Assembly (NCBI RefSeq): GCF_013122565.1
Contig: NZ_CP053258.1
From: Escherichia coli
GTDB taxonomy: Bacteria > Pseudomonadota > Gammaproteobacteria > Enterobacterales > Enterobacteriaceae
DNA length: 64,000 nt
Strand: one strand, 5' to 3'
A model generated the notes under the pieces. That model made no database searches and had not been told where the DNA came from. It worked only from the letters and a program-made list of their open reading frames with translations. How positions within the stretch are numbered: the stretch's first letter is position 1; each line of letters starts with the position of its first letter. A program made the translations under genes and the position numbers. Below are positions 1-59,221 of this stretch, one piece after another.

Positions 1-588
1 CAGCAATATGCAGTAGCGGGAAAGAACGCGGTTCAGCAAATTATTACTTGCCAGATGGCTGTACTCTTCTTTGAGCGTCAGAATCACCTGCGTACCCGTT
101 TCCGAGGACTGATGCGGCGTAACGGTATATTTTTGCCCGTCAGTAGAGTGGTATTTCCAGCTCTGATCCGGCGTTTGCCAGGATGTGGTCAACACCGTGA
201 CCTCTTTTGCAAGTACAAATGCTGACAAGAAACCAAGGCCGAACATACCAATTAAACCGGTGTTGTCATCCTGCTGGCGCAACATTCGGGTATAACCCAC
301 GCCCACTGTTGCCAGGAAGCCGTGAATTTCGCTTTCTGTCAAACCCGCACCGGTATCGGTAATGGTGATGGTGGACTTCGCCACGTCTGCCACTACACGA
401 ATTTGGTTATCCTTTGGCGCATCGGGCTGCTCAATCCTGCGGCGCACGATCGCATCGTGTCCGTTCTGCACCAGCTCGCGCACGGCGACCACGGGCGTAG
501 AGTAAAGGTGCTTACTGAGCACCTCAATTAAGCCGTTTAAATTAACTTCAGTAGAATATGAACTGCCAGGTAACTGTAATGTACTCAT
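1..588 (-). CDS. HSP90/HtpG-family ATPase paralog, N-terminal part (gene continues beyond window start)
   Basis: Hand translation of minus strand from ATG at 588: MSTLQLPGSSYSTEVNLNGLIEVLSKHLYSTPVVAVRELVQNGHDA...ITITDTGAGLTESEI...LIGMFGLGFLSAFVLAKEVTV, matching HtpG N-domain motifs (RELISNASDA, ISDNGVGMT, IGQFGVGFYSAF). Sits in the K-12 yiiG position; identity with yiiG not verified. Confidence 0.55.
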   Translation of the reverse strand, partial: MSTLQLPGSSYSTEVNLNGLIEVLSKHLYSTPVVAVRELVQNGHDAIVRRRIEQPDAPKDNQIRVVADVAKSTITITDTGAGLTESEIHGFLATVGVGYTRMLRQQDDNTGLIGMFGLGFLSAFVLAKEVTVLTTSWQTPDQSWKYHSTDGQKYTVTPHQSSETGTQVILTLKEEYSHLASNNLLNRVLSRYCILL

Positions 589-854
589 TTTTCAATACTC
601 ATAATCCATCACCCACTATTGAAAATACATTGCTGTTTTTACAACCGGTGCAAGGTTTGTTATTTGCATTCACTCATCAGAAACATTTATTTATTGATGC
701 GATGATTAAAACAAAATGTCTTATATAAATAATGATTAATTCTTAAAGGATTAATGCGACCGGAGTATATCGATATAAACCGGAATTAACGAGATAATTT
801 ATTGTGGTGAAAATATTATTTAAATGCTGAATAATATATTGAGGATTATTTAAT

Positions 855-900
855 AGAAAAATAAAACCGCAATCCAGAATCAGAATTGCGGTATTTATTT
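855..900 (-). terminator. Stem-loop accgcaatccagaatcagaattgcggt with flanking T/A runs, downstream of fdhD
   Basis: Inverted repeat 866-892 flanked by T-rich tracts on both strands, immediately 3' of the fdhD stop. Confidence 0.5.
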
Positions 901-1735
901 AATTATGAATCAAACGCTGCGGATGCGTATAAACCGTCGCCCGACCCGGTTTACAAAAGCCCACCAGCGTCAGATTACAGCGCTCGGCCACTTCCACGGC
1001 AAGTGTGGTCGCGGCAGACACCGCAAACAAAATCTCTACGCCACACATCGCCGACTTTTGCACCATTTCATAACTGGCACGGCTGGAAACCAGTACCGCA
1101 CCTTGCTGCCAGCTTTCCCCTTCTTGTGACCGGCGGCCTAACAGTTTGTCCAGCGCCACATGACGCCCCACGTCTTCATGCCCGCCGACCAGTTCGCCAG
1201 ATGGCAACATCCATGCAGCGGCGTGAGTACAACCAGTCAGTTGCCCCACTGGCTGGAAATCGTTGAGATGACGTAATGCATCATCCAGTTTGTTGAGATC
1301 AAACGTCTGGGTGAACGGTAGCGGCTGCACCGGTTTTCCGATGTCATTAAGTTGCTCCACGCCGCATACACCACAGCCCGTACGTCCCGCCAGCGCCCGG
1401 CGGCGCTCCTTCAACCCCATAAAGCGGCGGCTGGAAAGCTCAATTTGTACTTCAAGACCATTACAGGAAGGAACGACATCCATGCCGAAGATATCGCGCG
1501 GGCTTTCTATAATCCCCTCGGAAAGCGAAAAACCGAGCGCAAAGTACTCAAGGTCTTTGGGCGACGCCATCATCACCACATGCGAAATGCCGTTGTAGAC
1601 CAGCGCAACGGGAACTTCTTCCGCCACCTCATCTAACCGTGGGTGTTGTAAATCATCACGTCGCCATAACACAATTTGACGAACACCTGTGACATTTGTC
1701 ACATTTTCGATTTCTTTTTGCTGTGTTTTTTTCAC
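899..1735 (-). CDS. fdhD: Formate dehydrogenase accessory sulfurtransferase FdhD
   Basis: 278-aa ORF divergent from fdoG; length and position match K-12 fdhD. Confidence 0.9.
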
Positions 1736-1928
1736 TTTCTATTAACCGGATAAGAACACACACACCAACATTATGGTATTCTGTTACAAACCCTTCCTGG
1801 ATGGAGGGAAATTGAGCCAATTCTGGACCTTTGCGGCCCCTTCCGCAAAGAAAAATAACTCCCACTCCCTGCACACGCAGCAAGCGAATGTAAATGGGAC
1901 GTGACAATGTCGAAACAAGGAGCAATCC

Positions 1929-4900
1929 ATGCAGGTCAGCAGAAGGCAGTTCTTTAAGATCTGCGCTGGCGGTATGGCAGGCACCACGGCAGCGGCACTG
2001 GGTTTTGCACCCAGCGTAGCACTCGCGGAAACCCGGCAGTATAAACTGCTGCGCACCCGCGAAACCCGTAATACCTGCACCTATTGTTCCGTAGGCTGTG
2101 GGCTGTTGATGTACAGCCTCGGTGACGGAGCAAAAAACGCCAAAGCATCTATCTTCCATATCGAAGGCGATCCGGATCACCCGGTCAACCGCGGTGCACT
2201 TTGTCCGAAAGGCGCTGGCCTGGTGGATTTCATCCACTCCGAAAGCCGTCTGAAGTTTCCGGAATACCGTGCGCCAGGTTCTGATAAATGGCAGCAAATC
2301 AGTTGGGAAGAGGCGTTTGATCGCATCGCCAAACTGATGAAAGAAGACCGCGATGCTAACTACATTGCGCAAAACGCCGAAGGCGTGACTGTTAACCGCT
2401 GGCTCTCTACCGGGATGCTGTGTGCTTCCGCATCGAGTAACGAAACCGGCTATTTAACGCAAAAATTCTCCCGCGCGCTGGGTATGCTCGCGGTCGACAA
2501 CCAGGCGCGTGTCTGACACGGACCAACGGTAGCAAGTCTTGCTCCAACATTTGGTCGCGGTGCGATGACCAACCACTGGGTCGACATCAAGAACGCCAAC
2601 CTCGTCGTGGTGATGGGCGGTAATGCCGCTGAAGCTCACCCGGTCGGGTTCCGCTGGGCGATGGAAGCCAAAATTCACAACGGCGCGAAGCTGATTGTGA
2701 TCGATCCTCGCTTTACGCGTACGGCGGCGGTAGCTGACTACTATGCCCCTATTCGTTCCGGTACTGACATTGCTTTCCTGTCAGGCGTATTGCTGTACCT
2801 GCTGAACAATGAAAAATTCAACCGCGAATACACCGAAGCCTATACCAACGCCAGCCTGATCGTGCGTGAGGATTACGGCTTTGAAGATGGCCTGTTCACC
2901 GGCTATGACGCGGAAAAACGCAAGTACGATAAATCCTCCTGGACTTACGAACTGGACGAAAACGGCTTCGCCAAACGCGATACCACGCTGCAACATCCGC
3001 GCTGCGTGTGGAACTTGCTGAAACAGCACGTTTCCCGCTACACGCCAGATGTGGTTGAAAACATCTGTGGTACGCCAAAAGACGCGTTCCTGAAAGTCTG
3101 CGAATACATCGCAGAAACCAGTGCTCACGATAAAACTGCCTCGTTCCTGTATGCCCTCGGCTGGACGCAACACTCCGTTGGTGCGCAAAACATTCGTACG
3201 ATGGCGATGATCCAGCTGCTGCTCGGCAATATGGGGATGGCAGGCGGCGGCGTTAACGCCCTGCGCGGTCACTCCAATATTCAGGGGCTGACGGACCTGG
3301 GGCTGCTGTCGCAGAGCCTGCCAGGTTACATGACGCTGCCAAGCGAGAAGCAGACCGATCTGCAAACCTACCTTACCGCCAACACGCCAAAACCGCTGCT
3401 GGAAGGCCAGGTAAACTACTGGGGCAACTACCCGAAATTCTTCGTCTCTATGATGAAGGCCTTCTTTGGTGATAAAGCGACGGCGGAAAATAGCTGGGGC
3501 TTTGACTGGTTGCCGAAGTGGGATAAAGGCTACGACGTCCTGCAATACTTCGAGATGATGAAAGAAGGCAAGGTCAATGGCTATATCTGCCAGGGCTTTA
3601 ACCCTGTTGCCTCATTCCCGAACAAAAACAAAGTGATCGGTTGTCTGTCGAAACTGAAGTTCCTCGTCACTATCGACCCGCTGAACACTGAAACCTCTAA
3701 CTTCTGGCAGAACCACGGTGAGCTGAACGAAGTTGACTCGTCGAAGATCCAGACCGAAGTGTTCCGTCTGCCATCGACCTGCTTCGCGGAAGAGAACGGT
3801 TCAATCGTTAACTCAGGTCGCTGGTTGCAGTGGCACTGGAAAGGTGCGGACGCCCCGGGGATTGCGCTGACTGACGGCGAGATCCTCTCCGGTATCTTCC
3901 TGCGCTTGCGCAAGATGTATGCCGAACAGGGTGGCGCAAACCCGGATCAGGTGCTGAACATGACCTGGAACTACGCCATTCCGCATGAGCCGAAGTCGGA
4001 AGAAGTGGCGATGGAGAGCAACGGTAAGGCGCTGGCCGATATTACCGATCCGGCAACCGGTGCGGTTATCGTCAAGAAAGGTCAACAACTTAGCTCGTTC
4101 GCCCAACTGCGCGATGACGGTACAACTTCCTGTGGTTGCTGGATTTTCGCCGGTAGCTGGACGCCGGAAGGCAACCAGATGGCACGCCGTGATAACGCCG
4201 ATCCGTCTGGCCTCGGTAACACGCTGGGCTGGGCATGGGCATGGCCGCTTAACCGCCGCATTCTGTATAACCGCGCCTCCGCAGATCCGCAGGGTAACCC
4301 GTGGGATCCGAAGCGTCAGTTGCTGAAATGGGACGGCACTAAGTGGACCGGCTGGGATATTCCGGACTACAGCGCAGCGCCTCCGGGTAGCGGCGTCGGG
4401 CCGTTTATCATGCAGCAGGAAGGCATGGGGCGTCTGTTTGCCCTCGATAAGATGGCGGAAGGTCCGTTCCCGGAACACTACGAGCCGTTTGAAACGCCGC
4501 TGGGAACTAACCCGCTGCATCCAAACGTTATCTCGAACCCGGCTGCACGTATCTTTAAAGACGACGCCGAAGCATTGGGTAAAGCCGATAAGTTCCCGTA
4601 TGTCGGAACCACCTATCGTCTGACCGAGCACTTCCACTACTGGACCAAACACGCGCTGTTGAACGCGATTTTGCAGCCAGAGCAGTTTGTGGAAATCGGT
4701 GAGTCGCTGGCGAATAAACTTGGCATTGCCCAGGGCGATACCGTGAAAGTCTCCTCCAACCGTGGCTATATCAAAGCCAAAGCGGTGGTGACCAAACGTA
4801 TTCGCACGCTGAAAGCGAACGGCAAAGATATCGATACCATCGGTATTCCGATTCACTGGGGCTATGAAGGCGTTGCGAAAAAAGGCTTTATTGCCAATAC

Positions 4901-4979
4901 GTTGACGCCATTCGTCGGTGATGCGAACACGCAGACGCCGGAGTTTAAGTCCTTCCTTGTGAATGTGGAAAAGGTGTAA
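1929..4979 (+). CDS. fdoG: Formate dehydrogenase-O alpha subunit (selenoprotein, in-frame TGA)
   Basis: ORFs 1929-2516 and 2565-4979 are in the same frame, joined through TGA at 2514-2516; Tat signal MQVSRRQFFKICAGG; total 1016 aa as in K-12 FdoG. Confidence 0.9.
2514..2570 (+). other. Selenocysteine UGA codon (2514-2516) and presumed downstream SECIS region
   Basis: In-frame TGA inside the molybdopterin enzyme ORF, with the reading frame continuing; SECIS hairpin inferred from position, not folded. Confidence 0.7.
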
Positions 4980-4991
4980 CGGAGACGACAT

Positions 4992-5894
4992 ATGGCTTAT
5001 CAATCGCAAGATATCATTCGTCGTTCCGCGACTAACGGTCTGACCCCCGCGCCTCAGGCGCGGGACTTCCAGGAAGAAGTGGCGAAACTCATCGACGTCA
5101 CCACCTGTATCGGCTGTAAAGCCTGTCAGGTGGCGTGTTCAGAGTGGAACGACATTCGCGATACCGTCGGCAATAACATTGGGGTGTACGACAACCCCAA
5201 TGATTTAAGTGCCAAATCGTGGACGGTGATGCGATTCTCGGAAGTGGAGCAGAACGACAAACTGGAATGGCTGATCCGCAAAGACGGCTGTATGCACTGT
5301 TCCGATCCCGGCTGCCTGAAAGCGTGCCCGGCGGAAGGTGCAATTATTCAGTATGCCAACGGTATCGTCGACTTCCAGTCCGAGCAGTGCATTGGCTGCG
5401 GTTATTGCATTGCGGGCTGTCCGTTCGACATTCCGCGCCTCAACCCGGAAGACAACCGCGTCTACAAATGTACGCTGTGCGTTGACCGCGTGGTGGTTGG
5501 GCAAGAACCGGCCTGCGTGAAGACCTGCCCAACGGGCGCGATTCACTTCGGTACGAAAGAGTCGATAAAAACGCTGGCGAGCGAGCGCGTGGCGGAGCTG
5601 AAAACCCGTGGTTACGACAATGCGGGCCTGTACGATCCGGCAGGTGTCGGTGGTACACACGTTATGTACGTGCTGCACCATGCTGACAAGCCAAATCTCT
5701 ATCATGGCTTGCCGGAGAACCCGGAAATCAGCGAAACCGTGAAATTCTGGAAAGGCATCTGGAAACCGCTCGCAGCTGTTGGCTTTGCGGCTACCTTCGC
5801 GGCCAGTATCTTCCACTACGTGGGTGTCGGTCCGAACCGTGCGGATGAGGAAGAGAATAATCTGCACGAAGAGAAAGACGAGGAGCGCAAATGA
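4992..5894 (+). CDS. fdoH: Formate dehydrogenase-O iron-sulfur (beta) subunit
   Basis: 300 aa with multiple CxxCxxCxxxCP ferredoxin motifs and C-terminal TM segment; follows fdoG. Confidence 0.9.
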
Positions 5895-6526
5895 AACGAC
5901 GTGACACCATCGTGCGCTACACCGCGCCGGAACGTATCAACCACTGGATCACCGCCTTCTGCTTCATCCTGGCGGCGGTGAGCGGGCTGGGCTTTTTGTT
6001 CCCGTCCTTCAACTGGTTGATGCAAATCATGGGCACACCGCAGCTGGCGCGAATTCTGCACCCGTTTGTCGGCGTGGTTATGTTTGCCTCGTTCATCATC
6101 ATGTTTTTCCGTTACTGGCATCACAACCTAATCAATCGGGATGATATCTTTTGGGCGAAGAATATTCGTAAGATCGTCGTCAACGAGGAAGTAGGTGACA
6201 CCGGGCGTTATAACTTCGGTCAGAAATGCGTTTTCTGGGCGGCGATTATTTTCCTGGTTCTGCTGCTGGTGAGCGGCGTGATTATCTGGCGTCCTTATTT
6301 TGCGCCTGCTTTCTCAATCCCGGTGATCCGATTCGCGTTAATGCTGCATTCATTTGCCGCAGTGGCGTTAATTGTGGTTATCATGGTGCATATCTACGCC
6401 GCCCTTTGGGTGAAAGGCACGATTACCGCCATGGTGGAAGGATGGGTTACCAGCGCCTGGGCGAAGAAACATCACCCGCGCTGGTACCGTGAGGTCCGCA
6501 AGACAACGGAAAAGAAAGCTGAATGA
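5891..6526 (+). CDS. fdoI: Formate dehydrogenase-O cytochrome b556 (gamma) subunit
   Basis: 211-aa polytopic membrane protein, overlapping fdoH stop (ATGA). Confidence 0.9.
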
Positions 6527-7452
6527 GTATTCGCATAATCCCGCAAGATGAGCTGGGTTCGGGCGAGAAACGTACGGCGGATATGATTCCGCCGTTATTG
6601 TTCCCTCGGCTCAAGAATTTATACAACCGCCGCGCCGAGCGTCTGCGCGAGCTGGCAGAAAATAATCCGCTGGGTGATTACCTGCGCTTTGCTGCGCTTA
6701 TCGCCCACGCCCAGGAAGTGGTGCTGTACGACCATCCGCTGGAGATGGATCTGACTGCACGCATTAAAGAAGCCAGCGCACAAGGCAAGCCCCCGCTGGA
6801 TATTCACGTTCTGCCGCGTGATAAGCACTGGCAAAAGCTGCTGATGGCGCTAATTGCTGAGCTGAAACCTGAAATGAGCGGCCCGGCGCTGGCAGTGATT
6901 GAGAATCTGGAGAAGGCATCGACTCAGGAGCTGGAAGATATGGCCAGCGCACTGTTTGCCTCTGATTTCTCATCCGTCAGTAGCGATAAAGCGCCGTTTA
7001 TCTGGGCTGCACTGTCGCTCTACTGGGCGCAGATGGCCAATCTGATCCCCGGCAAAGCCCGCGCTGAATACGGCGAACAACGTCAATATTGCCCGGTTTG
7101 TGGTTCTATGCCGGTGTCCAGCATGGTGCAAATTGGCACCACTCAGGGTCTGCGTTACCTGCACTGCAACCTGTGTGAAACCGAATGGCACGTAGTGCGC
7201 GTAAAATGCAGCAACTGCGAGCAGAGCGGCAAACTGCATTACTGGTCGCTGGATGACGAACAGGCCGCGATTAAAGCCGAAAGCTGCGATGACTGCGGCA
7301 CTTACCTGAAAATTCTCTATCAGGAAAAAGAACCGAAAGTTGAAGCCGTGGCAGATGACCTCGCCTCTCTGGTACTGGACGCACGAATGGAGCAAGAAGG
7401 CTATGCCCGCAGTTCCATCAACCCGTTCCTGTTTCCGGGTGAAGGGGAGTAA
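6523..7452 (+). CDS. fdhE: Formate dehydrogenase accessory protein FdhE
   Basis: 309 aa with CxxC pairs ([27 protein letters not shown]); overlaps fdoI stop. Confidence 0.9.
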
Positions 7453-7629
7453 TCTCTGACGTTTTCCGGGTGGCGCTGGTCGCCCGGATTACAGCTCATA
7501 GGGTGTGACGACACCATCTCTCGTATTCCGCGTTACCACCTCAAGCTATGCCGCCTGTGCCTGTTTGCCTCGTTCTTCCCTCCAACACATCGATAAGGTT
7601 ATTGGTATGTTACTGATGACAAGCGTAAG

Positions 7630-7745
7630 ATTGCCTGATGCGCTGCGCTTATCAGGCCTACCAATAAACTGCAATACATTGAATTTTCATGACTTTGTAG
7701 GCCGGATAAGGCGTTCACGCCGCATCCGGCATGAACAACGCACAC
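7630..7745. repeat. REP/BIME-type palindromic elements
   Basis: gcctgatgcgctgcgcttatcaggcctac and gtaggccggataaggcgttcacgccgcatccggca motifs typical of E. coli REP units. Confidence 0.75.
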
Positions 7746-7780
7746 GTTGTCAGCAATCTGATTGACATCATTTTTTCCCA

Positions 7781-8002
7781 TTACCCTTCCTCGCGCAGCT
7801 TACGCTGGTATTCGACACCATCTTCCTCATACACTTGCCAGATGCCAGGAACACTGGATCTTGCTGTTTGCAATTGATTTTCCAGGTATTGTTCTACCGC
7901 TTCTCGTAATAGGTCTGCACGCGGAAGATTACGCTGCACCTCAAGATCATCAAGTTGCTTAATCACCTCATTCGATAAATCGAGTAAAATTCTGCTCATA
8001 TC
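7781..8002 (-). CDS. yiiF: Ribbon-helix-helix (CopG/Arc-like) small DNA-binding protein
   Basis: ORF 7781-8038; likely start [12 protein letters not shown] at 8002; shares the REAVEQYLE motif with its neighbour. Confidence 0.7.
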
Positions 8003-8117
8003 CCAACCTGCCAGAGGGTTCGTAAATATTTCACCCATATCATTTTTGAATCTATGGAGAGAAAAGTACCCTTGCCGAATCTTAAAAGAAAGCTCATTTA
8101 CGCATCATTTTTTATTT

Positions 8118-8136
8118 TTGCGAGGCGTTTTCCAGA
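8118..8136 (-). promoter_or_regulatory. Conserved upstream motif ttgcgaggcgttttccaga, copy 1 (upstream of yiiF)
   Basis: Identical 19-mer recurs at 8557-8575 and, with one change, at 9788-9807, each about 90-120 bp upstream of a minus-strand start codon. Confidence 0.5.
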
Positions 8137-8241
8137 TATGATGTAACAGTTGCAGTTATTATAAGTTCAAGTAAAACAGTCTTGTATTAATACCAGAATA
8201 AGGGCATCTGGTTTTTATATTCAAGAATAATATATTTTTTG

Positions 8242-8460
8242 TCATTCCTTATGCTCCTTACACTGATCATCAACAACTACTGTCTCACCCCTTTGCCTGC
8301 CTCCCTTTGCTTTACGCACCGGAAATTGCTGCCGCTCCAGATATTGCTCAACCGCTTCGCGTAAAATTGCAGATCGTGAAACCTTACGCCAGCCCCGAAG
8401 CTTGTTCAGCCGTTTAATTGCCTCTTCTGATAAATGAAGAAAAACCGTATTCATCGTCAT
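8242..8460 (-). CDS. yiiE: Ribbon-helix-helix (CopG/Arc-like) small DNA-binding protein, paralog of yiiF
   Basis: ORF 8242-8469; [11 protein letters not shown] motif; tandem paralog of yiiF including its upstream region. Confidence 0.7.
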   Translation of the reverse strand: MTMNTVFLHLSEEAIKRLNKLRGWRKVSRSAILREAVEQYLERQQFPVRKAKGGRQRGETVVVDDQCKEHKE

Positions 8461-8556
8461 TGCCACCACCTAACATATATTATTCATTAATGTATGTACG
8501 AAAACTACGCCGGAAAATTAATTAACGAAAGCGGATTTTTGCATGTTGTTTTGTTT

Positions 8557-8575
8557 TTGCGAGGCGTTTTCCAGA
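8557..8575 (-). promoter_or_regulatory. Conserved upstream motif ttgcgaggcgttttccaga, copy 2 (upstream of yiiE)
   Basis: Same 19-mer as copy 1; also followed by the related gttgcagtt box seen after copy 1. Confidence 0.5.
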
Positions 8576-8985
8576 AATAATAAGAGCGTTGCAGTTGTTT
8601 CAATTGTTACTCAAAAATGGTTTAGTTATCGCCCAAAATGAATTATAGGTGCTATGAATATATTATATTCAGGGATATTTATTTTTTCATTGGATCTTTA
8701 TTTGCATAATCTGAATGGTGTAGCCGAAAAATGTCAGCATCCTAACAGCACCCGGATTTACGGTGAAATTAATCATCCATCACAGACCGGTCAGTACTGC
8801 TACCAACCGGTCTTAACTTGCTCATCGTTATAATTTTGTTGGTAACAGTTCGGGAAACAAGGAATTCCTTCCGGAACACCCCTGACATCATCCGATAGCA
8901 TTGACGTCAATCATCGGCGCGACGATGAGTTTTTTAATCGCATCATAGGGTGGCAACGGTCAGCACGATTACGGGTCATAGCAAA

Positions 8986-9090
8986 ACTCCTGAGCAGGTG
9001 GCACTACGCCGCTTTCACAGGAGTTCTGAATGCTGGTGCTTTCTGTATGGCATAACCATGCCTCTAACGGTTAAGTGCTTGCAGCACATG
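8986..9090. repeat. About 105-bp direct repeat, copy A (overlaps 3' end of antitoxin gene)
   Basis: aactcctgagcag..gccgctttcacaggagttctgaatgctggtgctttctgtatggc.. recurs at 10802-10906 with roughly 85 percent identity by eye. Confidence 0.8.
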
Positions 9091-25218: not shown

Positions 25219-26604
25219 ATGAGTCACATCACAACGGAAGATCCGGCAACTTTGCGCCTGCCCTTTAAAGAGAAACTCTCTTACGGTATTGGCGACCTGG
25301 CCTCTAACATTTTGCTGGATATCGGCACGCTTTATCTTTTGAAGTTTTATACCGACGTTCTGGGGCTGCCTGGCACCTATGGCGGCATTATCTTTTTGAT
25401 CTCGAAATTCTTTACCGCCTTTACCGATATGGGAACCGGCATCATGTTGGATTCCCGACGCAAGATCGGTCCAAAAGGTAAATTCCGTCCTTTTATTCTG
25501 TATGCGTCATTCCCGGTTACCTTATTGGCAATCGCTAACTTTATCGGCACACCGTTCGATGTCACCGGTAAAACGGTGATGGCCACTATTCTGTTTATGC
25601 TTTACGGACTGTTTTTCAGCATGATGAACTGCTCCTACGGCGCAATGGTTCCCGCCATTACCAAAAACCCCAACGAACGCGCCTCGCTGGCAGCATGGCG
25701 TCAGGGCGGCGCTACGCTGGGCCTGCTGCTGTGCACGGTGGGATTCGTGCCGGTTATGAATCTTATCGAGGGTAATCAGCAACTTGGCTATATCTTCGCC
25801 GCCACGCTGTTTTCACTGTTTGGCCTGCTGTTTATGTGGATCTGCTATTCGGGCGTGAAAGAGCGTTATGTCGAAACCCAACCTACCAATCCGGCGCAAA
25901 AGCCTGGCCTGCTGCAATCTTTCCGCGCAATTGCCGGTAACCGCCCACTGTTCATTCTGTGCATTGCCAACCTCTGCACTTTAGGGGCGTTTAACGTCAA
26001 GCTCGCCATCCAGGTCTATTACACCCAGTACGTACTTAACGATCCCATCCTGTTGTCATATATGGGATTTTTCAGCATGGGCTGTATTTTCATCGGCGTG
26101 TTCCTGATGCCTGGCGCAGTCAGGCGTTTTGGTAAGAAGAAGGTCTATATCGGCGGCCTGCTGATTTGGGTGCTGGGCGATCTGCTCAACTATTTCTTCG
26201 GCGGCGGTTCGGTCAGCTTCGTGGCGTTCTCCTGCCTGGCATTCTTCGGCTCAGCGTTTGTTAACAGCCTGAACTGGGCGCTGGTTTCCGACACCGTCGA
26301 GTACGGCGAGTGGCGTACCGGCGTTCGTTCGGAAGGAACGGTCTACACCGGCTTCACCTTCTTTCGCAAAGTGTCTCAGGCGCTGGCTGGTTTCTTCCCC
26401 GGCTGGATGCTGACGCAAATCGGTTATGTGCCGAACGTGGCGCAGGCTGACCACACCATTGAAGGGTTGCGCCAGCTGATCTTCATCTACCCAAGCGCAC
26501 TGGCGGTAGTCACCATTGTGGCGATGGGCTGCTTCTACAGCCTGAACGAGAAGATGTATGTCCGCATTGTTGAAGAAATAGAAGCCCGTAAACGCACGGC
26601 GTAA
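25219..26604 (+). CDS. yihP: GPH-family sugar/sulfonate:cation symporter
   Basis: 12-TM transporter, paralog of the next gene; 461 aa from MSHITTED. Confidence 0.8.
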   Translation: MSHITTEDPATLRLPFKEKLSYGIGDLASNILLDIGTLYLLKFYTDVLGLPGTYGGIIFLISKFFTAFTDMGTGIMLDSRRKIGPKGKFRPFILYASFPVTLLAIANFIGTPFDVTGKTVMATILFMLYGLFFSMMNCSYGAMVPAITKNPNERASLAAWRQGGATLGLLLCTVGFVPVMNLIEGNQQLGYIFAATLFSLFGLLFMWICYSGVKERYVETQPTNPAQKPGLLQSFRAIAGNRPLFILCIANLCTLGAFNVKLAIQVYYTQYVLNDPILLSYMGFFSMGCIFIGVFLMPGAVRRFGKKKVYIGGLLIWVLGDLLNYFFGGGSVSFVAFSCLAFFGSAFVNSLNWALVSDTVEYGEWRTGVRSEGTVYTGFTFFRKVSQALAGFFPGWMLTQIGYVPNVAQADHTIEGLRQLIFIYPSALAVVTIVAMGCFYSLNEKMYVRIVEEIEARKRTA

Positions 26605-26646: not shown

Positions 26647-28050
26647 ATGTCTGACCATAATCCACTGACATTAAAACTGAATCTGCGGGAAAAAATCGCC
26701 TATGGTATGGGCGACGTCGGTTCGAATTTAATGCTCTGCATCGGTACTCTGTATCTCCTCAAATTTTATACCGATGAATTAGGGATGCCTGCTTACTATG
26801 GCGGGATTATCTTTCTGGTGGCGAAGTTTTTTACCGCGTTTACCGATATGCTCACCGGATTTTTACTCGACTCGCGGAAAAATATTGGGCCTAAAGGCAA
26901 ATTTCGTCCCTTTATTTTATATGCAGCAGTTCCGGCGGCGTTAATTGCAACGCTCCAGTTTATCGCCACCACCTTTTGTTTGCCGGTTAAAACGACGATT
27001 GCCACCGCGCTGTTTATGATGTTTGGACTTTCATACAGTCTGATGAACTGCTCGTATGGTGCGATGATCCCGGCAATTACCAAAAACCCGAATGAGCGCG
27101 CGCAGCTCGCGGCTTACCGCCAGGGTGGTGCAACCATAGGGCTATTGATTTGTACCGTGGCGTTTATTCCGTTGCAGTCGCTTTTTTCTGACTCAACCGT
27201 CGGTTATGCCTGTGCGGCACTTATGTTCTCCATTGGCGGCTTTATTTTTATGATGCTGTGCTACAGAGGCGTCAAAGAGCATTATGTGGACACAGCGCCA
27301 ACCGGACATAAAGCCAGTATTCTCAAATCTTTTTGCGCGATATTTCGTAATCCACCATTGCTGGTTTTATGCATTGCTAACCTGTGTACTCTGGCGGCAT
27401 TTAATATCAAACTGGCGATTCAGGTCTATTACACCCAGTATGTGCTGAATGATATTAATTTATTGTCGTGGATGGGATTCTTCAGTATGGGATGCATCCT
27501 CGTCGGCGTATTACTGGTGCCAGTAACTGTAAAATGTTTTGGTAAAAAACAGGTTTATTTAGCTGGCATGGTGCTATGGGCGGTGGGTGATATACTGAAT
27601 TATTTCTGGGGAAGTAACTCTTTCACTTTCGTCATGTTCTCTTGTGTCGCCTTTTTTGGCACGGCCTTTGTAAACAGCCTGAACTGGGCACTGGTACCAG
27701 ATACCGTAGATTACGGTGAATGGAAAACCGGTATTCGTGCCGAAGGTTCTGTTTATACCGGTTATACCTTCTTTCGTAAAATTTCTGCCGCACTTGCTGG
27801 CTTCTTGCCAGGCATTATGCTGACGCAAATCGGTTATGTTCCCAACATCGCGCAAAGTGATGCGACATTACAGGGTTTGCGTCAGCTCATTTTTATCTGG
27901 CCTTGTGCACTGGCAATTATTGCTGCATTGACGATGGGATTCTTTTACACACTCAATGAAAAACGGTTTGCGTTGATTATTGAGGAAATCAACCAACGCA
28001 AAAATAAAGAGATGGCGACAGAAGAAAAAACGGCTTCCGTAACGTTATAA
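26647..28050 (+). CDS. yihO: GPH-family sulfoquinovose transporter
   Basis: 467 aa from MSDHNPL; paralogous to yihP. Confidence 0.8.
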   Translation: MSDHNPLTLKLNLREKIAYGMGDVGSNLMLCIGTLYLLKFYTDELGMPAYYGGIIFLVAKFFTAFTDMLTGFLLDSRKNIGPKGKFRPFILYAAVPAALIATLQFIATTFCLPVKTTIATALFMMFGLSYSLMNCSYGAMIPAITKNPNERAQLAAYRQGGATIGLLICTVAFIPLQSLFSDSTVGYACAALMFSIGGFIFMMLCYRGVKEHYVDTAPTGHKASILKSFCAIFRNPPLLVLCIANLCTLAAFNIKLAIQVYYTQYVLNDINLLSWMGFFSMGCILVGVLLVPVTVKCFGKKQVYLAGMVLWAVGDILNYFWGSNSFTFVMFSCVAFFGTAFVNSLNWALVPDTVDYGEWKTGIRAEGSVYTGYTFFRKISAALAGFLPGIMLTQIGYVPNIAQSDATLQGLRQLIFIWPCALAIIAALTMGFFYTLNEKRFALIIEEINQRKNKEMATEEKTASVTL

Positions 28051-36426: not shown

Positions 36427-36577
36427 AACTTTGCCTCAGGCATTAGAAATAGCGCGTTATTGTACACGGATTAATCGCACTACAAAACAGGATCACAAAC
36501 ATCCTCCGCAAACAAGTATTGCAGAGTCCCTTTGTGATCGCTTTCACGGAGCATAAAAAGGGTTATCCAAAGGTCAT

Positions 36578-36645
36578 TGCACCAATATGGTGCTTAATGT
36601 TTCCATTGAAGCACTATATTGGTGCAACATTCACATCATGGTGCA
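36578..36645 (+). promoter_or_regulatory. NtrC (NRI) enhancer sites upstream of glnA
   Basis: Dyad sites tgcaccaatatggtgct, gcactatattggtgca and tcacatcatggtgca (TGCACC-N-GGTGCA type). Confidence 0.75.
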
Positions 36646-41199: not shown

Positions 41200-41300
<101 letters not shown>

Positions 41301-43456: not shown

Positions 43457-43522
43457 AATGGTTCGTCTTTTAGCCGTTTTATTCAGTATAGATTTGCGGC
43501 GGAATCTAACAGAAAGCAAGCA

Positions 43523-43767
43523 AAGAAAAAAGGCGACAGATTACTCTGTCGCCTTTTTTCCTGACTCATAACCCTTAACGGGTCTTACAATCCTTGCAGG
43601 CCGCCAACACACCCTGTTTTTCCATTAGCCGGAACAATCCGTGTTGATTCCATTTCCGTTTAATTACGTCTCCGGACGTTTGTCTTCCTGACAATCCTCT
43701 GTCTTCGCCTCCTGGCGCTCCTGACCCTCATCCTGAGTCATTGTTCCTGTTAGCGTCCTCGCTCTAT
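43523..43767 (-). ncRNA. csrC: CsrC small RNA (CsrA-sequestering)
   Basis: Minus-strand sequence begins ATAGAGCGAGGACGCTAACAGGAACAATGACTCAGGATGAGGGTCAGGAGCG, carries many GGA motifs, and ends in the terminator GGCGACAGAGTAATCTGTCGCCTTTTTT; lies between yihI and engB. Confidence 0.8.
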
Positions 43768-44794: not shown

Positions 44795-44903
44795 ATAAAA
44801 AACGCCCCAGTCATTACTGACTGGGGCGGCTAAAATATTCAGCCAAATCCGATTACGTGAAGTAAAAGGTCTGAAAGATAGAACATCTTACCTCTGTACC
44901 CTA
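44795..44903 (-). ncRNA. spf: Spot 42 small RNA
   Basis: Reverse complement reads GTAGGGTACAGAGGTAAGATGTTCTATCTTTCAGACCTTTTACTTCACGTAATCGGATTTGGCTGAATATTTTAGCCGCCCCAGTCAGTAATGACTGGGGCGTTTTTTA. Confidence 0.9.
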
Positions 44904-45051
44904 CGCGACTAACTTTACTCTTTTTTGTTCAGTTCAGAAAGCACTTTTTGTAATTTTTTTTCAGTTGTTGCATAGGAATTTCTAATAGCCATCACAAAAC
45001 GTGACAGCTTATGTTGCTTACTTACGAAAAAAGGGCATGTTCAGGCGAATC

Positions 45052-53999: not shown

Positions 54000-54119
54000 A
54001 TGCCTGGCAGTTCCCTACTCTCGCATGGGGAGACCCCACACTACCATCGGCGCTACGGCGTTTCACTTCTGAGTTCGGCATGGGGTCAGGTGGGACCACC
54101 GCGCTACGGCCGCCAGGCA
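54000..54119 (-). rRNA. rrfA: 5S ribosomal RNA
   Basis: Reverse complement matches the E. coli 5S sequence TGCCTGGCGGC...GGAACTGCCAGGCAT (120 nt). Confidence 0.95.
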
Positions 54120-54211: not shown

Positions 54212-57115
<2,904 letters not shown>

Positions 57116-57288: not shown

Positions 57289-57364
57289 ATGGTGGAGCTA
57301 TGCGGGATCGAACCGCAGACCTCCTGCGTGCAAAGCAGGCGCTCTCCCAGCTGAGCTATAGCCC
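57289..57364 (-). tRNA. alaT: tRNA-Ala (UGC)
   Basis: Reverse complement GGGGCTATAGCTCAGCTGGGAGAGCGCCTGCTTTGCACGCAGGAGGTCTGCGGTTCGATCCCGCATAGCTCCACCA. Confidence 0.95.
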
Positions 57365-57406
57365 CATAACATGTAGTTAAAACCTCTTCAAATTTGCGGT
57401 GCAAAT

Positions 57407-57483
<77 letters not shown>

Positions 57484-57552
57484 TGTAGAGGTTTTACTGC
57501 TCATTTTCATCAGACAATCTGTGTGAGCACTGCAAAGTACAGTTCTTTAAGG

Positions 57553-59093
<1,541 letters not shown>

Positions 59094-59221
59094 TAAAAGT
59101 TTGATGCTCAAAGAATTAAACTTCGTAATGAATTACGTGTTCACTCTTGAGACTTGGTATTCATTTTTCGTCTTGCGACGTTAAGAATCCGTATCTTCGA
59201 GTGCCCACACAGATTGTCTGA

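What the first reader, a model, noticed from the sequence alone, without database searches (positions are those of the whole stretch)
1929..4979. fdoG is one selenoprotein gene that the ORF track splits at an in-frame TGA
ORFs 1929-2516 and 2565-4979 are in the same frame and are separated only by TGA at 2514-2516 (..NQARV-U-HGPTVASLAPTFGRGAMTNHW..). Established knowledge: formate dehydrogenase catalytic subunits contain selenocysteine encoded by UGA with a downstream SECIS element. Automated annotation would call two fragments or a pseudogene.
Basis: partly seen in the sequence, partly recalled or inferred. Interest (0 to 1): 0.25.

Follow-up and report, generated by a model that had tools for sequence, protein, structure and literature searches.

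The report
fdoG selenocysteine codon with SECIS hairpin
The apparent stop codon inside this E. coli formate dehydrogenase gene (fdoG) is the well-known UGA that is read as selenocysteine with the help of an RNA hairpin just after it, so this is one intact gene and an ordinary, textbook feature.

Summary
ORFs 1929-2516 and 2565-4979 share one frame, and TGA at 2514-2516 is the only interruption.

The gene is fdoG, the catalytic subunit of formate dehydrogenase-O.
- It is 99.05% identical to K-12 b3894, against 75.2% to fdnG.
- It sits in the fdhD / fdoG-fdoH-fdoI-fdhE arrangement.

The TGA aligns with the selenocysteine position (X196) of the solved FdnG structure 1KQF.

The sequence 2511-2569 matches Rfam SECIS_3 above its curated threshold, at 84.3 bits against 63.

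Comparative evidence agrees:
- The 92-nt TGA+SECIS segment is identical in 5318 of 5433 E. coli records.
- It forms the longest identical run (71 nt) between the paralogues fdoG and fdnG.
- In 117 TGA-type homologues from many genera, the apical helix is paired 7 of 7, with compensatory changes and an invariant GU loop.
- The 4 Cys-codon homologues lack the hairpin.

RefSeq/PGAP calls one 3051-nt CDS. Other pipelines do deposit the 195-aa and 804-aa fragments.

Verdict: already known, low interest.

The parts
1929..4979 (+). fdoG, a single coding sequence of 1016 codons plus TAA, encoding the catalytic alpha subunit of formate dehydrogenase-O with selenocysteine at codon 196
   Evidence: One frame with one internal TGA. 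99.05% nt identity to K-12 b3894 fdoG with 1 aa difference, and 0 aa differences to WP_011310337.1. TIGR01553 scores 1574 bits against a cutoff of 814. PDB 1KQF chain A aligns over residues 1-1015. RefSeq annotates the orthologous 3051-nt stretch as one CDS.
1929..2027 (+). Predicted twin-arginine (Tat) signal peptide, MQVSRRQFFKICAGGMAGTTAAALGFAPSVALA
   Evidence: The S-R-R-x-F-F-K motif is read directly from the translation, and the N-terminus aligns with that of FdnG 1KQF. The cleavage site is inferred, not tested.
2514..2516 (+). UGA codon 196, recoded as selenocysteine (active-site Sec, followed by His197)
   Evidence: It aligns with X196 of 1KQF. It is TGA in K-12 fdoG, fdnG and fdhF and in 117 of 121 homologous sites from other genera.
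2511..2569 (+). Bacterial SECIS element (extent of the Rfam SECIS_3 match); the hairpin proper spans about 2517-2559
   Evidence: RF01989 at 84.3 bits against gathering 63, E 2e-19, full model 1-59. The MFE hairpin of 2514-2560 is -13.8 kcal/mol. The region lies within the 71-nt run (2511-2581) that is identical between fdoG and fdnG, the next longest run being 36 nt.
2528..2545 (+). Apical minihelix GG-U-AGCAA-GUC-UUGCU-CC, the presumed SelB-binding part. It starts 11 nt after the UGA and has a bulged U (2530) and loop G2536/U2537
   Evidence: It folds on its own as ((.(((((...))))))). It is paired 7 of 7 in all 117 TGA-type homologues. Two pairs show compensatory changes (GC/AU/GU and AU/CG/GC), and the loop GU is invariant at positions my search pattern left free. 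The 11-nt spacing and the GGU...GUC motif are the same as in K-12 fdhF.
4992..5894 (+). fdoH, the iron-sulfur beta subunit
   Evidence: TIGR01582 at 475.9 bits against a cutoff of 334.7. RefSeq calls it fdoH.
5891..6526 (+). fdoI, the cytochrome b556 gamma subunit
   Evidence: NF007924 at 453.3 bits against a cutoff of 341. The FdnI model NF007558 reaches only 243.6 against a cutoff of 339. 100% nt identity to K-12 fdoI.
6523..7452 (+). fdhE, formate dehydrogenase accessory protein
   Evidence: NF002925 at 602.4 bits against a cutoff of 426.
899..1735 (-). fdhD, the divergently transcribed accessory sulfurtransferase
   Evidence: TIGR00129 at 339.2 bits against a cutoff of 140.9. The synteny matches K-12.

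Best explanation
Positions 1929-4979 are one intact gene, fdoG, encoding the Tat-exported molybdopterin/[4Fe-4S] catalytic subunit of E. coli formate dehydrogenase-O. Codon 196 (UGA, 2514-2516) is not a terminator. It is decoded as the active-site selenocysteine. An mRNA hairpin inside the coding sequence, the SECIS (about 2517-2559), has an apical minihelix at 2528-2545 that begins 11 nt after the UGA. When the ribosome reaches the UGA, this hairpin binds the specialised elongation factor SelB carrying GTP and Sec-tRNA(Sec), which outcompetes release factor 2. Translation then continues through the remaining 820 codons. What is shown here: the frame, the homology, the position of Sec, the presence and conservation of the SECIS, its covariation, and the operon context. 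What is inferred from established knowledge of the E. coli selABCD system and not testable in this window: SelB binding, actual selenium incorporation, and the presence of selA, selB, selC and selD elsewhere in this genome.
For: There is a single in-frame TGA in a 1017-codon frame. Rfam SECIS_3 matches 2511-2569 above threshold, and it is the only such hit in 64 kb. 1KQF FdnG aligns end to end with X196 opposite the TGA, and TIGR01553 scores 1574 bits. The region downstream of the TGA is under purifying selection as coding sequence: against PS10-3 fdoG there are 23 nt differences, 22 at third codon positions, and 0 aa changes; against K-12 there are 29 nt differences and 1 aa change. The 92 nt around the TGA are identical in 5318 of 5433 E. 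coli records, and the lowest-ranked record still has the TGA and the SECIS. fdoG and fdnG are 75.2% identical overall, yet their longest identical run is 71 nt at 2511-2581, and 19 of 19 synonymous codons after the TGA are identical (P about 3.6e-5 from the gene-wide rate of 0.584). In a truncated cross-genus sample, 117 sites carry TGA and 4 carry TGC or TGT. All 117 TGA sites keep 7 of 7 apical pairs, the loop GU, and G at the free third position of the Thr codon. The 4 Cys sites keep only 4-6 pairs and have no GU loop. Compensatory changes occur at pairs 18:30 (GC 37, AU 10, GU 4) and 21:27 (AU 32, CG 17, GC 2), with 100% of cells paired. The spacing and motif are the same as in K-12 fdhF, the archetypal SECIS. 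PMC8124441 describes the SelB/SECIS mechanism and names FDH-O (fdoGHI) as carrying a catalytic Sec.
Against: Nothing found argues against it. The limits are as follows. The hairpin's folding energy is not exceptional against shuffles (z +0.38 and -1.63). The register of the lower stem is ambiguous: the Rfam register gives A.G and A.C mismatches in the enterobacterial sequence type, and ViennaRNA shifts it by one. The 71-nt identity with fdnG could partly reflect gene conversion rather than RNA-level selection alone.
Confidence: 0.97

Rival explanations
1. The TGA is a genuine nonsense codon. fdoG would then be a pseudogene or a truncated 195-aa product, and the downstream 804-codon ORF a decaying remnant.
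For: A naive ORF list shows two ORFs, and many public gene calls deposit the two fragments separately.
Against: The downstream 820 codons have no further stop. They differ from other E. coli almost only at synonymous sites: 0 aa changes in 23 nt differences in one comparison and 1 in 29 in the other. The same TGA is fixed across E. coli, in the paralogue fdnG, and in 117 of 121 homologous sites across genera. A curated-threshold SECIS follows it. The solved FdnG structure is a continuous chain through this position.
Confidence: 0.01
2. Two separate genes: a 195-aa Fe-S domain protein and an 804-aa molybdopterin protein initiated at ATG 2565.
For: An ATG exists at 2565, and some databases list an 804-aa protein.
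Against: Codons 197-212 (2517-2564) are conserved as protein (HGPTVASLAPTFGRGA) in all homologues and are part of the 1KQF chain. They include His197 next to Sec. The ATG encodes an internal Met of the conserved GRGAMTNHW motif. RefSeq and the curated K-12 record give one CDS.
Confidence: 0.005
3. The UGA is read through, but mainly by a near-cognate ordinary tRNA (Trp or Cys) rather than by Sec-tRNA(Sec).
For: None from this work. Low-level near-cognate suppression of UGA is a known general phenomenon (my own knowledge, not tested here).
Against: Strict nucleotide-level conservation and covariation of a SelB-type hairpin at the fixed 11-nt spacing would be unnecessary for near-cognate read-through. 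Lineages that do not use Sec simply carry TGC or TGT and lose the hairpin.
Confidence: 0.01

Closest known systems
E. coli K-12 fdoG (b3894), formate dehydrogenase-O alpha subunit, Sec196
   Same: Same length (3051 nt), 99.05% nt identity with 1 aa difference, identical TGA and 63 nt downstream, and the same fdhD / fdoGHI-fdhE neighbourhood.
   Different: 29 nucleotide differences, 26 of them at third codon positions, and one substitution (K689 here, S in K-12). The segment to the left of fdhD (window 1-900) is an accessory piece present in only 254 of 5426 E. coli genomes.
E. coli fdnG (b1474), formate dehydrogenase-N alpha subunit, PDB 1KQF
   Same: 77% aa identity, colinear alignment, Sec at the same residue 196, and an identical SECIS sequence (71 nt identical around the TGA).
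   Different: It is a paralogue at a different locus (yddG-fdnGHI-yddM) with 75.2% nt identity overall. The gamma subunit next to the window's gene matches the FdoI model, not the FdnI model.
E. coli fdhF SECIS, the archetypal bacterial SECIS for formate dehydrogenase-H
   Same: UGA-C context, 11 nt between the UGA and the minihelix, a GG/CC base, a bulged U, and a loop containing GU.
   Different: The fdoG/fdnG minihelix is 18 nt rather than 17. It has an extra A-U (or G.U) pair closing a GUC triloop, where fdhF has a GGUC tetraloop. It belongs to Rfam SECIS_3. The one other SECIS family listed in the 9-kb E-value scan, SECIS_2, scores only 28.1 bits against 70.
Rfam RF01989 SECIS_3
   Same: Full-length match to model positions 1-59 at 84.3 bits, above the gathering score of 63.
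   Different: In this enterobacterial sequence type, two lower-stem pairs of the Rfam consensus register are non-canonical (A.G and A.C), and a register shifted by one nucleotide pairs about equally well.

Membership tests
Bacterial SECIS element (Rfam RF01989 SECIS_3) | Covariance-model score at or above the curated gathering score | tested here: met
   84.3 bits against 63, E 2e-19, model positions 1-59 of 59. It is the only SECIS hit above threshold in the 64-kb window.
Bacterial SECIS element (Rfam RF01989 SECIS_3) | Lies inside the coding sequence immediately 3' of an in-frame UGA | tested here: met
   The UGA is at 2514-2516 and corresponds to model positions 4-6.
Bacterial SECIS element (Rfam RF01989 SECIS_3) | Apical minihelix at a fixed distance (11 nt) from the UGA, with a bulged U and GU in the loop (SelB determinants known from fdhF; the determinants themselves are from my own knowledge) | tested here: met
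   The sequence is GG-U-AGCAA-GUC-UUGCU-CC at 2528-2545. The spacing and motif are the same as in K-12 fdhF. Loop GU and the bulged U are invariant in 117 of 117 TGA-type homologues.
Bacterial SECIS element (Rfam RF01989 SECIS_3) | Helix supported by covariation across homologues | tested here: met
   The upper helix has 100% of cells paired in 51 distinct sequences, and 2 pairs show double (compensatory) changes. The whole-structure covariation score is 0.213-0.220, against 0.04-0.10 for slid controls. Lower stem: 84-87% paired, register ambiguous.
Bacterial SECIS element (Rfam RF01989 SECIS_3) | Binds SelB and directs Sec insertion | not testable with these tools
   This needs biochemistry or genetics. 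Inferred from established knowledge and PMC8124441.
Respiratory formate dehydrogenase N/O alpha subunit (NCBIfam TIGR01553) | HMM score above the curated cutoff over the full length | tested here: met
   1574 bits against 814.2, residues 2-1015 on profile positions 1-1009 (Sec was replaced by Cys for the search).
Respiratory formate dehydrogenase N/O alpha subunit (NCBIfam TIGR01553) | Active-site Sec followed by His, at the position of Sec196-His197 of FdnG | tested here: met
   The 1KQF alignment places X196 opposite the TGA codon, with HGPTVASL conserved after it.
Respiratory formate dehydrogenase N/O alpha subunit (NCBIfam TIGR01553) | Twin-arginine signal peptide | tested here: met
   SRRQFFK is read at residues 4-10 of the translation. 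Export itself was not tested.
Respiratory formate dehydrogenase N/O alpha subunit (NCBIfam TIGR01553) | Encoded together with beta (4x[4Fe-4S]) and gamma (cytochrome b) subunits | tested here: met
   fdoH matches TIGR01582 at 475.9 bits, and fdoI matches NF007924 at 453.3 bits. They lie directly downstream.
fdoG (FDH-O) as opposed to fdnG (FDH-N) | Orthology to K-12 b3894 by identity and by synteny (fdhD upstream and divergent, fdhE downstream) | tested here: met
   99.05% nt identity to b3894 against 75.2% to b1474. The gene order is fdhD(-) fdoG fdoH fdoI fdhE. The gamma subunit passes the FdoI model and fails the FdnI model. RefSeq/PGAP nevertheless labels the gene 'fdnG'.
fdoG (FDH-O) as opposed to fdnG (FDH-N) | Expression in aerobic or nitrate-respiring cells independent of NarL/Fnr induction | not testable with these tools
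   This is a physiological property and was not addressed.
Selenocysteine-decoding trait | The genome encodes selA, selB, selC (tRNA-Sec) and selD | not testable with these tools
   None of these lies in the 64-kb window. ARAGORN finds only tRNA-Ile and tRNA-Ala in the rrn spacer. The rest of the genome is not available.

The most novel reading that the evidence does not exclude
The most novel reading the evidence still allows concerns the perfect 71-nt identity between fdoG and fdnG, and the identical 47 nt shared across Escherichia, Citrobacter, Enterobacter, Klebsiella, Yersinia, Photorhabdus and Providencia. This conservation extends about 20 nt beyond the hairpin, to 2581. It might reflect more than SelB binding, for example a second overlapping constraint such as extended SECIS-ribosome or regulatory contacts, or recurrent gene conversion between the paralogues.
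Probability: 0.1. Interest if true: 0.3.

Novelty: already known. Interest (0 to 1): 0.04.

Why it matters
There is nothing new biologically. FdoG Sec196 and its SECIS are textbook E. coli features and are already captured by Rfam (SECIS_3), NCBIfam, the curated K-12 record and PGAP. The practical value is as an annotation check. ORF-based or Prodigal-type gene calling splits this gene, and the fragments are abundant in public protein collections. Some even carry wrong names, such as 'sulfate ABC transporter substrate-binding protein'. A scan pipeline should therefore merge same-frame ORF pairs separated by a TGA followed by a SECIS before looking for novelties.

Tried and rejected
(1) Thermodynamic folding as a stand-alone test. 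The 66-nt stretch gives z = +0.38 (130 of 200 shuffles fold as well), the 47-nt stretch z = -1.63, and the 18-nt minihelix z = -2.06. The hairpin is predicted but is not exceptional, so I relied on the covariance model and comparative data.

(2) Pseudogene and two-gene readings. Both are rejected on synonymous-only divergence downstream of the TGA, conservation of the TGA, and the continuous 1KQF chain.

(3) Whether the window is Shigella, or an artificially altered sequence, because the best E. coli match to fdoG is only 99.3%. No IS-like repeats were found. The differences are almost all at third codon positions. The left flank matches a subset of E. coli at 99.4%. So this is a natural, mosaic E. 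coli-type lineage. I could not identify the exact strain: loci carrying the identical FdhE protein are still only about 97.7% identical in DNA.

(4) Reading Thanbichler & Bock 2002 (PMC139081) for the SelB determinants. The paper is not held, so the statements about the bulged U and loop GU as SelB contacts rest on my own knowledge.

(5) Two script calls failed only because loci are stored together in one file.

(6) I tested both the Rfam and the ViennaRNA register of the lower stem. Neither is clearly better, at 84.5% and 86.5% of cells paired.
Full report
**Observation.**
The ORF list shows 1929..2516 (+, 195 aa) and 2565..4979 (+, 804 aa). Translating 1929-4979 in one frame gives 1017 codons. 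The only internal stop is at codon 196, and the terminal stop is TAA. The peptide around the internal stop is ..DNQARV*HGPTVASLAPTFGRGAMTNHW.., and the raw sequence has TGA at 2514-2516. The 48 nt between the TGA and the ATG at 2565 are open in frame. The second ORF 'starts' at 2565 only because an ORF lister needs a start codon.

**Identity of the gene.**
- With Cys substituted for the stop, the protein matches NCBIfam TIGR01553 (formate dehydrogenase-N/O alpha subunit) at 1574 bits, against a cutoff of 814.
- It aligns end to end (residues 1-1015) with the solved E. coli FdnG chain 1KQF_A. The non-standard residue X196 of the structure lies exactly opposite the TGA, and HGPTVASLAPTFGRGAMTNHW is conserved after it.
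- The neighbours are fdhD on the opposite strand (899-1735), then fdoH (4992-5894), fdoI (5891-6526) and fdhE (6523-7452). Each passes its curated NCBIfam cutoff.
- The gamma subunit passes the FdoI model (453 bits against 341) and fails the FdnI model (244 against 339).
- This is the gene order of the K-12 fdo locus, not that of yddG-fdnGHI-yddM.
- At the DNA level the gene is 99.05% identical to K-12 fdoG (29 differences, 26 at third codon positions, 1 amino-acid change). It is 99.25% identical to fdoG of strain PS10-3 (23 differences, 22 at third positions, no amino-acid change). It is only 75.2% identical to K-12 fdnG.

So the gene is fdoG. The near-exclusive synonymous divergence on both sides of the TGA shows that the whole 1016-codon frame is maintained as protein.

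**The SECIS.**
- A scan of 1-9000 against Rfam finds SECIS_3 (RF01989) at 2511-2569 on the + strand, at 84.3 bits (gathering score 63) and E 2e-19. It covers the whole model, with the UGA at model positions 4-6.
- At gathering thresholds it is the only SECIS hit in the 64-kb window.
- ViennaRNA folds 2514-2560 into a hairpin of -13.8 kcal/mol. The apical part, 2528-2545, is GG-U-AGCAA-GUC-UUGCU-CC, which is ((.(((((...))))))) in dot-bracket.
- The minihelix begins 11 nt after the UGA. K-12 fdhF, the archetypal bacterial SECIS, has the same 11-nt spacer followed by GG-U-UGCA-GGUC-UGCA-CC.
- From my own knowledge, not tested here, the bulged U and the loop G and U are the SelB contacts.
- The folding energy alone is not remarkable: z = +0.38 for a 66-nt stretch, -1.63 for 47 nt and -2.06 for the minihelix.

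**Comparative evidence within E. coli.**
- The gene is present in 5425 of 5426 complete E. coli genomes.
- The 92 nt around the TGA (2484-2575) are identical in 5318 of 5433 records.
- The lowest-ranked record still has the TGA and the identical SECIS. Its three mismatches all lie upstream, and it is in fact an fdnG-type copy.
- Between the paralogues fdoG and fdnG, the longest identical nucleotide run is 71 nt at window 2511-2581, and the next longest is 36 nt.
- All 19 degenerate codons after the TGA use the same codon in both genes. The gene-wide rate of codon identity is 0.584, which gives P of about 3.6e-5.

This is the signature of a nucleotide-level constraint overlapping the coding sequence. 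Local gene conversion cannot be excluded as a contributor.

**Comparative evidence across genera.**
- One pattern scan of species-representative genomes allowed TGA, TGC or TGT, followed by codons for H-G-P-T-V-A-x-L-A-P with free third positions.
- The window's exact 47 nt is the commonest type, with 23 loci. These include Photorhabdus, Yersinia, Citrobacter, Providencia, Enterobacter, Klebsiella and E. albertii.
- In all 117 TGA sites the seven apical pairs are intact, the loop GU is invariant, and the third position of the Thr codon is always G, which pairs with the first C of the Pro codon.
- The four Cys-codon homologues keep only 4-6 of 7 pairs and have CT, CA or CG in place of the loop GU. 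They serve as a small natural negative control.
- On the 51 distinct Sec-type sequences (alignment A1), the upper helix has 100% of cells paired.
- It shows compensatory changes at two pairs: GC 37 / AU 10 / GU 4, and AU 32 / CG 17 / GC 2. All four covarying columns were unconstrained by my pattern.
- The covariation score is 0.21-0.22, against 0.04-0.10 for slid controls.
- The lower stem is less clear. The Rfam register and a register shifted by one nucleotide give 84.5% and 86.5% of cells paired. In the enterobacterial sequence type the Rfam register contains A.G and A.C.

**Mechanism.**
Shown here: one frame, Sec-position homology, a threshold-passing and covarying SECIS at the canonical spacing, and the operon context. 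Inferred from established knowledge (summarised in PMC8124441): SelB-GTP carrying Sec-tRNA(Sec) binds the apical hairpin and delivers Sec to the UGA in competition with RF2, producing the full-length Tat-exported catalytic subunit of FDH-O. [quoted passage not shown] The only tRNAs are Ile and Ala in an rrn spacer. That part therefore cannot be checked.

**The annotation remark.**
- RefSeq/PGAP annotates the orthologous stretch as a single intact 3051-nt CDS, not as a pseudogene, although under the name 'fdnG: formate dehydrogenase-N subunit alpha'. The curated K-12 record says fdoG.
- The exact 195-aa and 804-aa fragments of this window are both in the large public protein collection. Each was seen on at least 1000 contigs, in clusters of 3382 and 6687 members. 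Some 195-aa fragments are mislabelled 'sulfate ABC transporter substrate-binding protein'.
- In NCBI assemblies that carry the identical FdhE, the neighbouring gene is called as 1016 aa in two (L126, L128) and as 804 aa in two (L127, L130). In one (L129) no gene is listed at that position.

**Rivals.**
- A true nonsense mutation or pseudogene is excluded by the fixed TGA, the synonymous-only divergence downstream, and the SECIS.
- Two separate genes are excluded by the conserved codons 197-212 and by the continuous solved chain.
- Near-cognate read-through does not explain a conserved, covarying SelB-type hairpin at a fixed spacing.

**Verdict.**
The finding is correct and is a textbook, already-annotated feature: E. 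coli FdoG Sec196 with its SECIS (Rfam SECIS_3). Novelty: already known. Interest is low. The only practical lesson is that ORF-based tracks should merge same-frame ORF pairs separated by a TGA followed by a SECIS.

Noticed in passing
window 1760-1958 (+): There is a sub-threshold Rfam match to RF02778, the FdoG-1 5' UTR thermometer (32 bits against gathering 50, E 5.8e-5, full model 1-193). It covers the fdhD-fdoG intergenic region and the first codons of fdoG. The 193-nt intergenic region differs from K-12 at only 2 positions.
   Followed up: no
window 1929-4979; loci L001, L126-L130: RefSeq/PGAP names the gene at the fdo locus 'fdnG: formate dehydrogenase-N subunit alpha', next to 'fdoH' and 'fdoI'. 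This looks like a naming artefact; my guess is that it comes from the name of the NCBIfam model TIGR01553, which I did not check. In other NCBI assemblies the same gene is called as 1016 aa or as 804 aa, or no gene is listed there.
   Followed up: partly
window 1929-2513 (the 195-aa fragment as deposited in public protein sets): Members of the fragment's 90% cluster from Cronobacter malonaticus and Hafnia alvei are named 'sulfate ABC transporter substrate-binding protein'. This is an evident mis-annotation of the N-terminal FdoG/FdnG fragment.
   Followed up: no
window 1-900: The segment to the left of fdhD does not align with the yiiG side of K-12 or PS10-3. It occurs in only 254 of 5426 E. 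coli genomes, at up to 99.4% identity, where it is annotated 'ATP-binding protein'. It is an accessory insertion point next to fdhD.
   Followed up: partly
window 7400-56900: Divergence from the 5426 complete E. coli genomes is uneven. The best match is 94.2% (93% covered) for 7400-32000, the yih sulfoquinovose region with STM4012-4015-family genes, and only 723 genomes cover at least 80% of it. The best match is 97.7% for 32001-56900. In contrast, fdoG is 99.3% identical to its best match and fdoI is 100% identical to K-12. No IS-like repeats were found. The lineage looks mosaic or under-sampled, and I could not identify the strain.
   Followed up: partly
window 7597-7751 and 41222-41299: There are REP/BIME-like matches (Rfam naRNA4 and ES036). 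Those downstream of fdhE are below threshold. One at 41222-41299 is above threshold, at 82.3 bits.
   Followed up: no
window 36508-59094 (-): Known RNA genes were found, as expected for this chromosomal region: ES222 (36508-36615), CsrC (43514-43767), Spot 42 (44796-44914), and an rrn operon. The operon comprises 5S (54002-54117), 23S (54212-57115), tRNA-Ala and tRNA-Ile (57290-57484) and 16S (57553-59094).
   Followed up: no
window 2517-2526 with 2551-2559 (lower SECIS stem): The register of the lower stem is ambiguous. The Rfam consensus register leaves A.G and A.C in the enterobacterial sequence type, and ViennaRNA prefers a register shifted by one nucleotide. Across 51 sequences the two registers pair about equally, at 84.5% and 86.5% of cells.
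   Followed up: partly
window 25916-26215 and 27326-27625: A 300-nt direct repeat at 69% identity with 1410-nt spacing lies in the region syntenic with the adjacent MFS transporter genes yihP and yihO of another strain. It probably reflects their paralogy.
   Followed up: no
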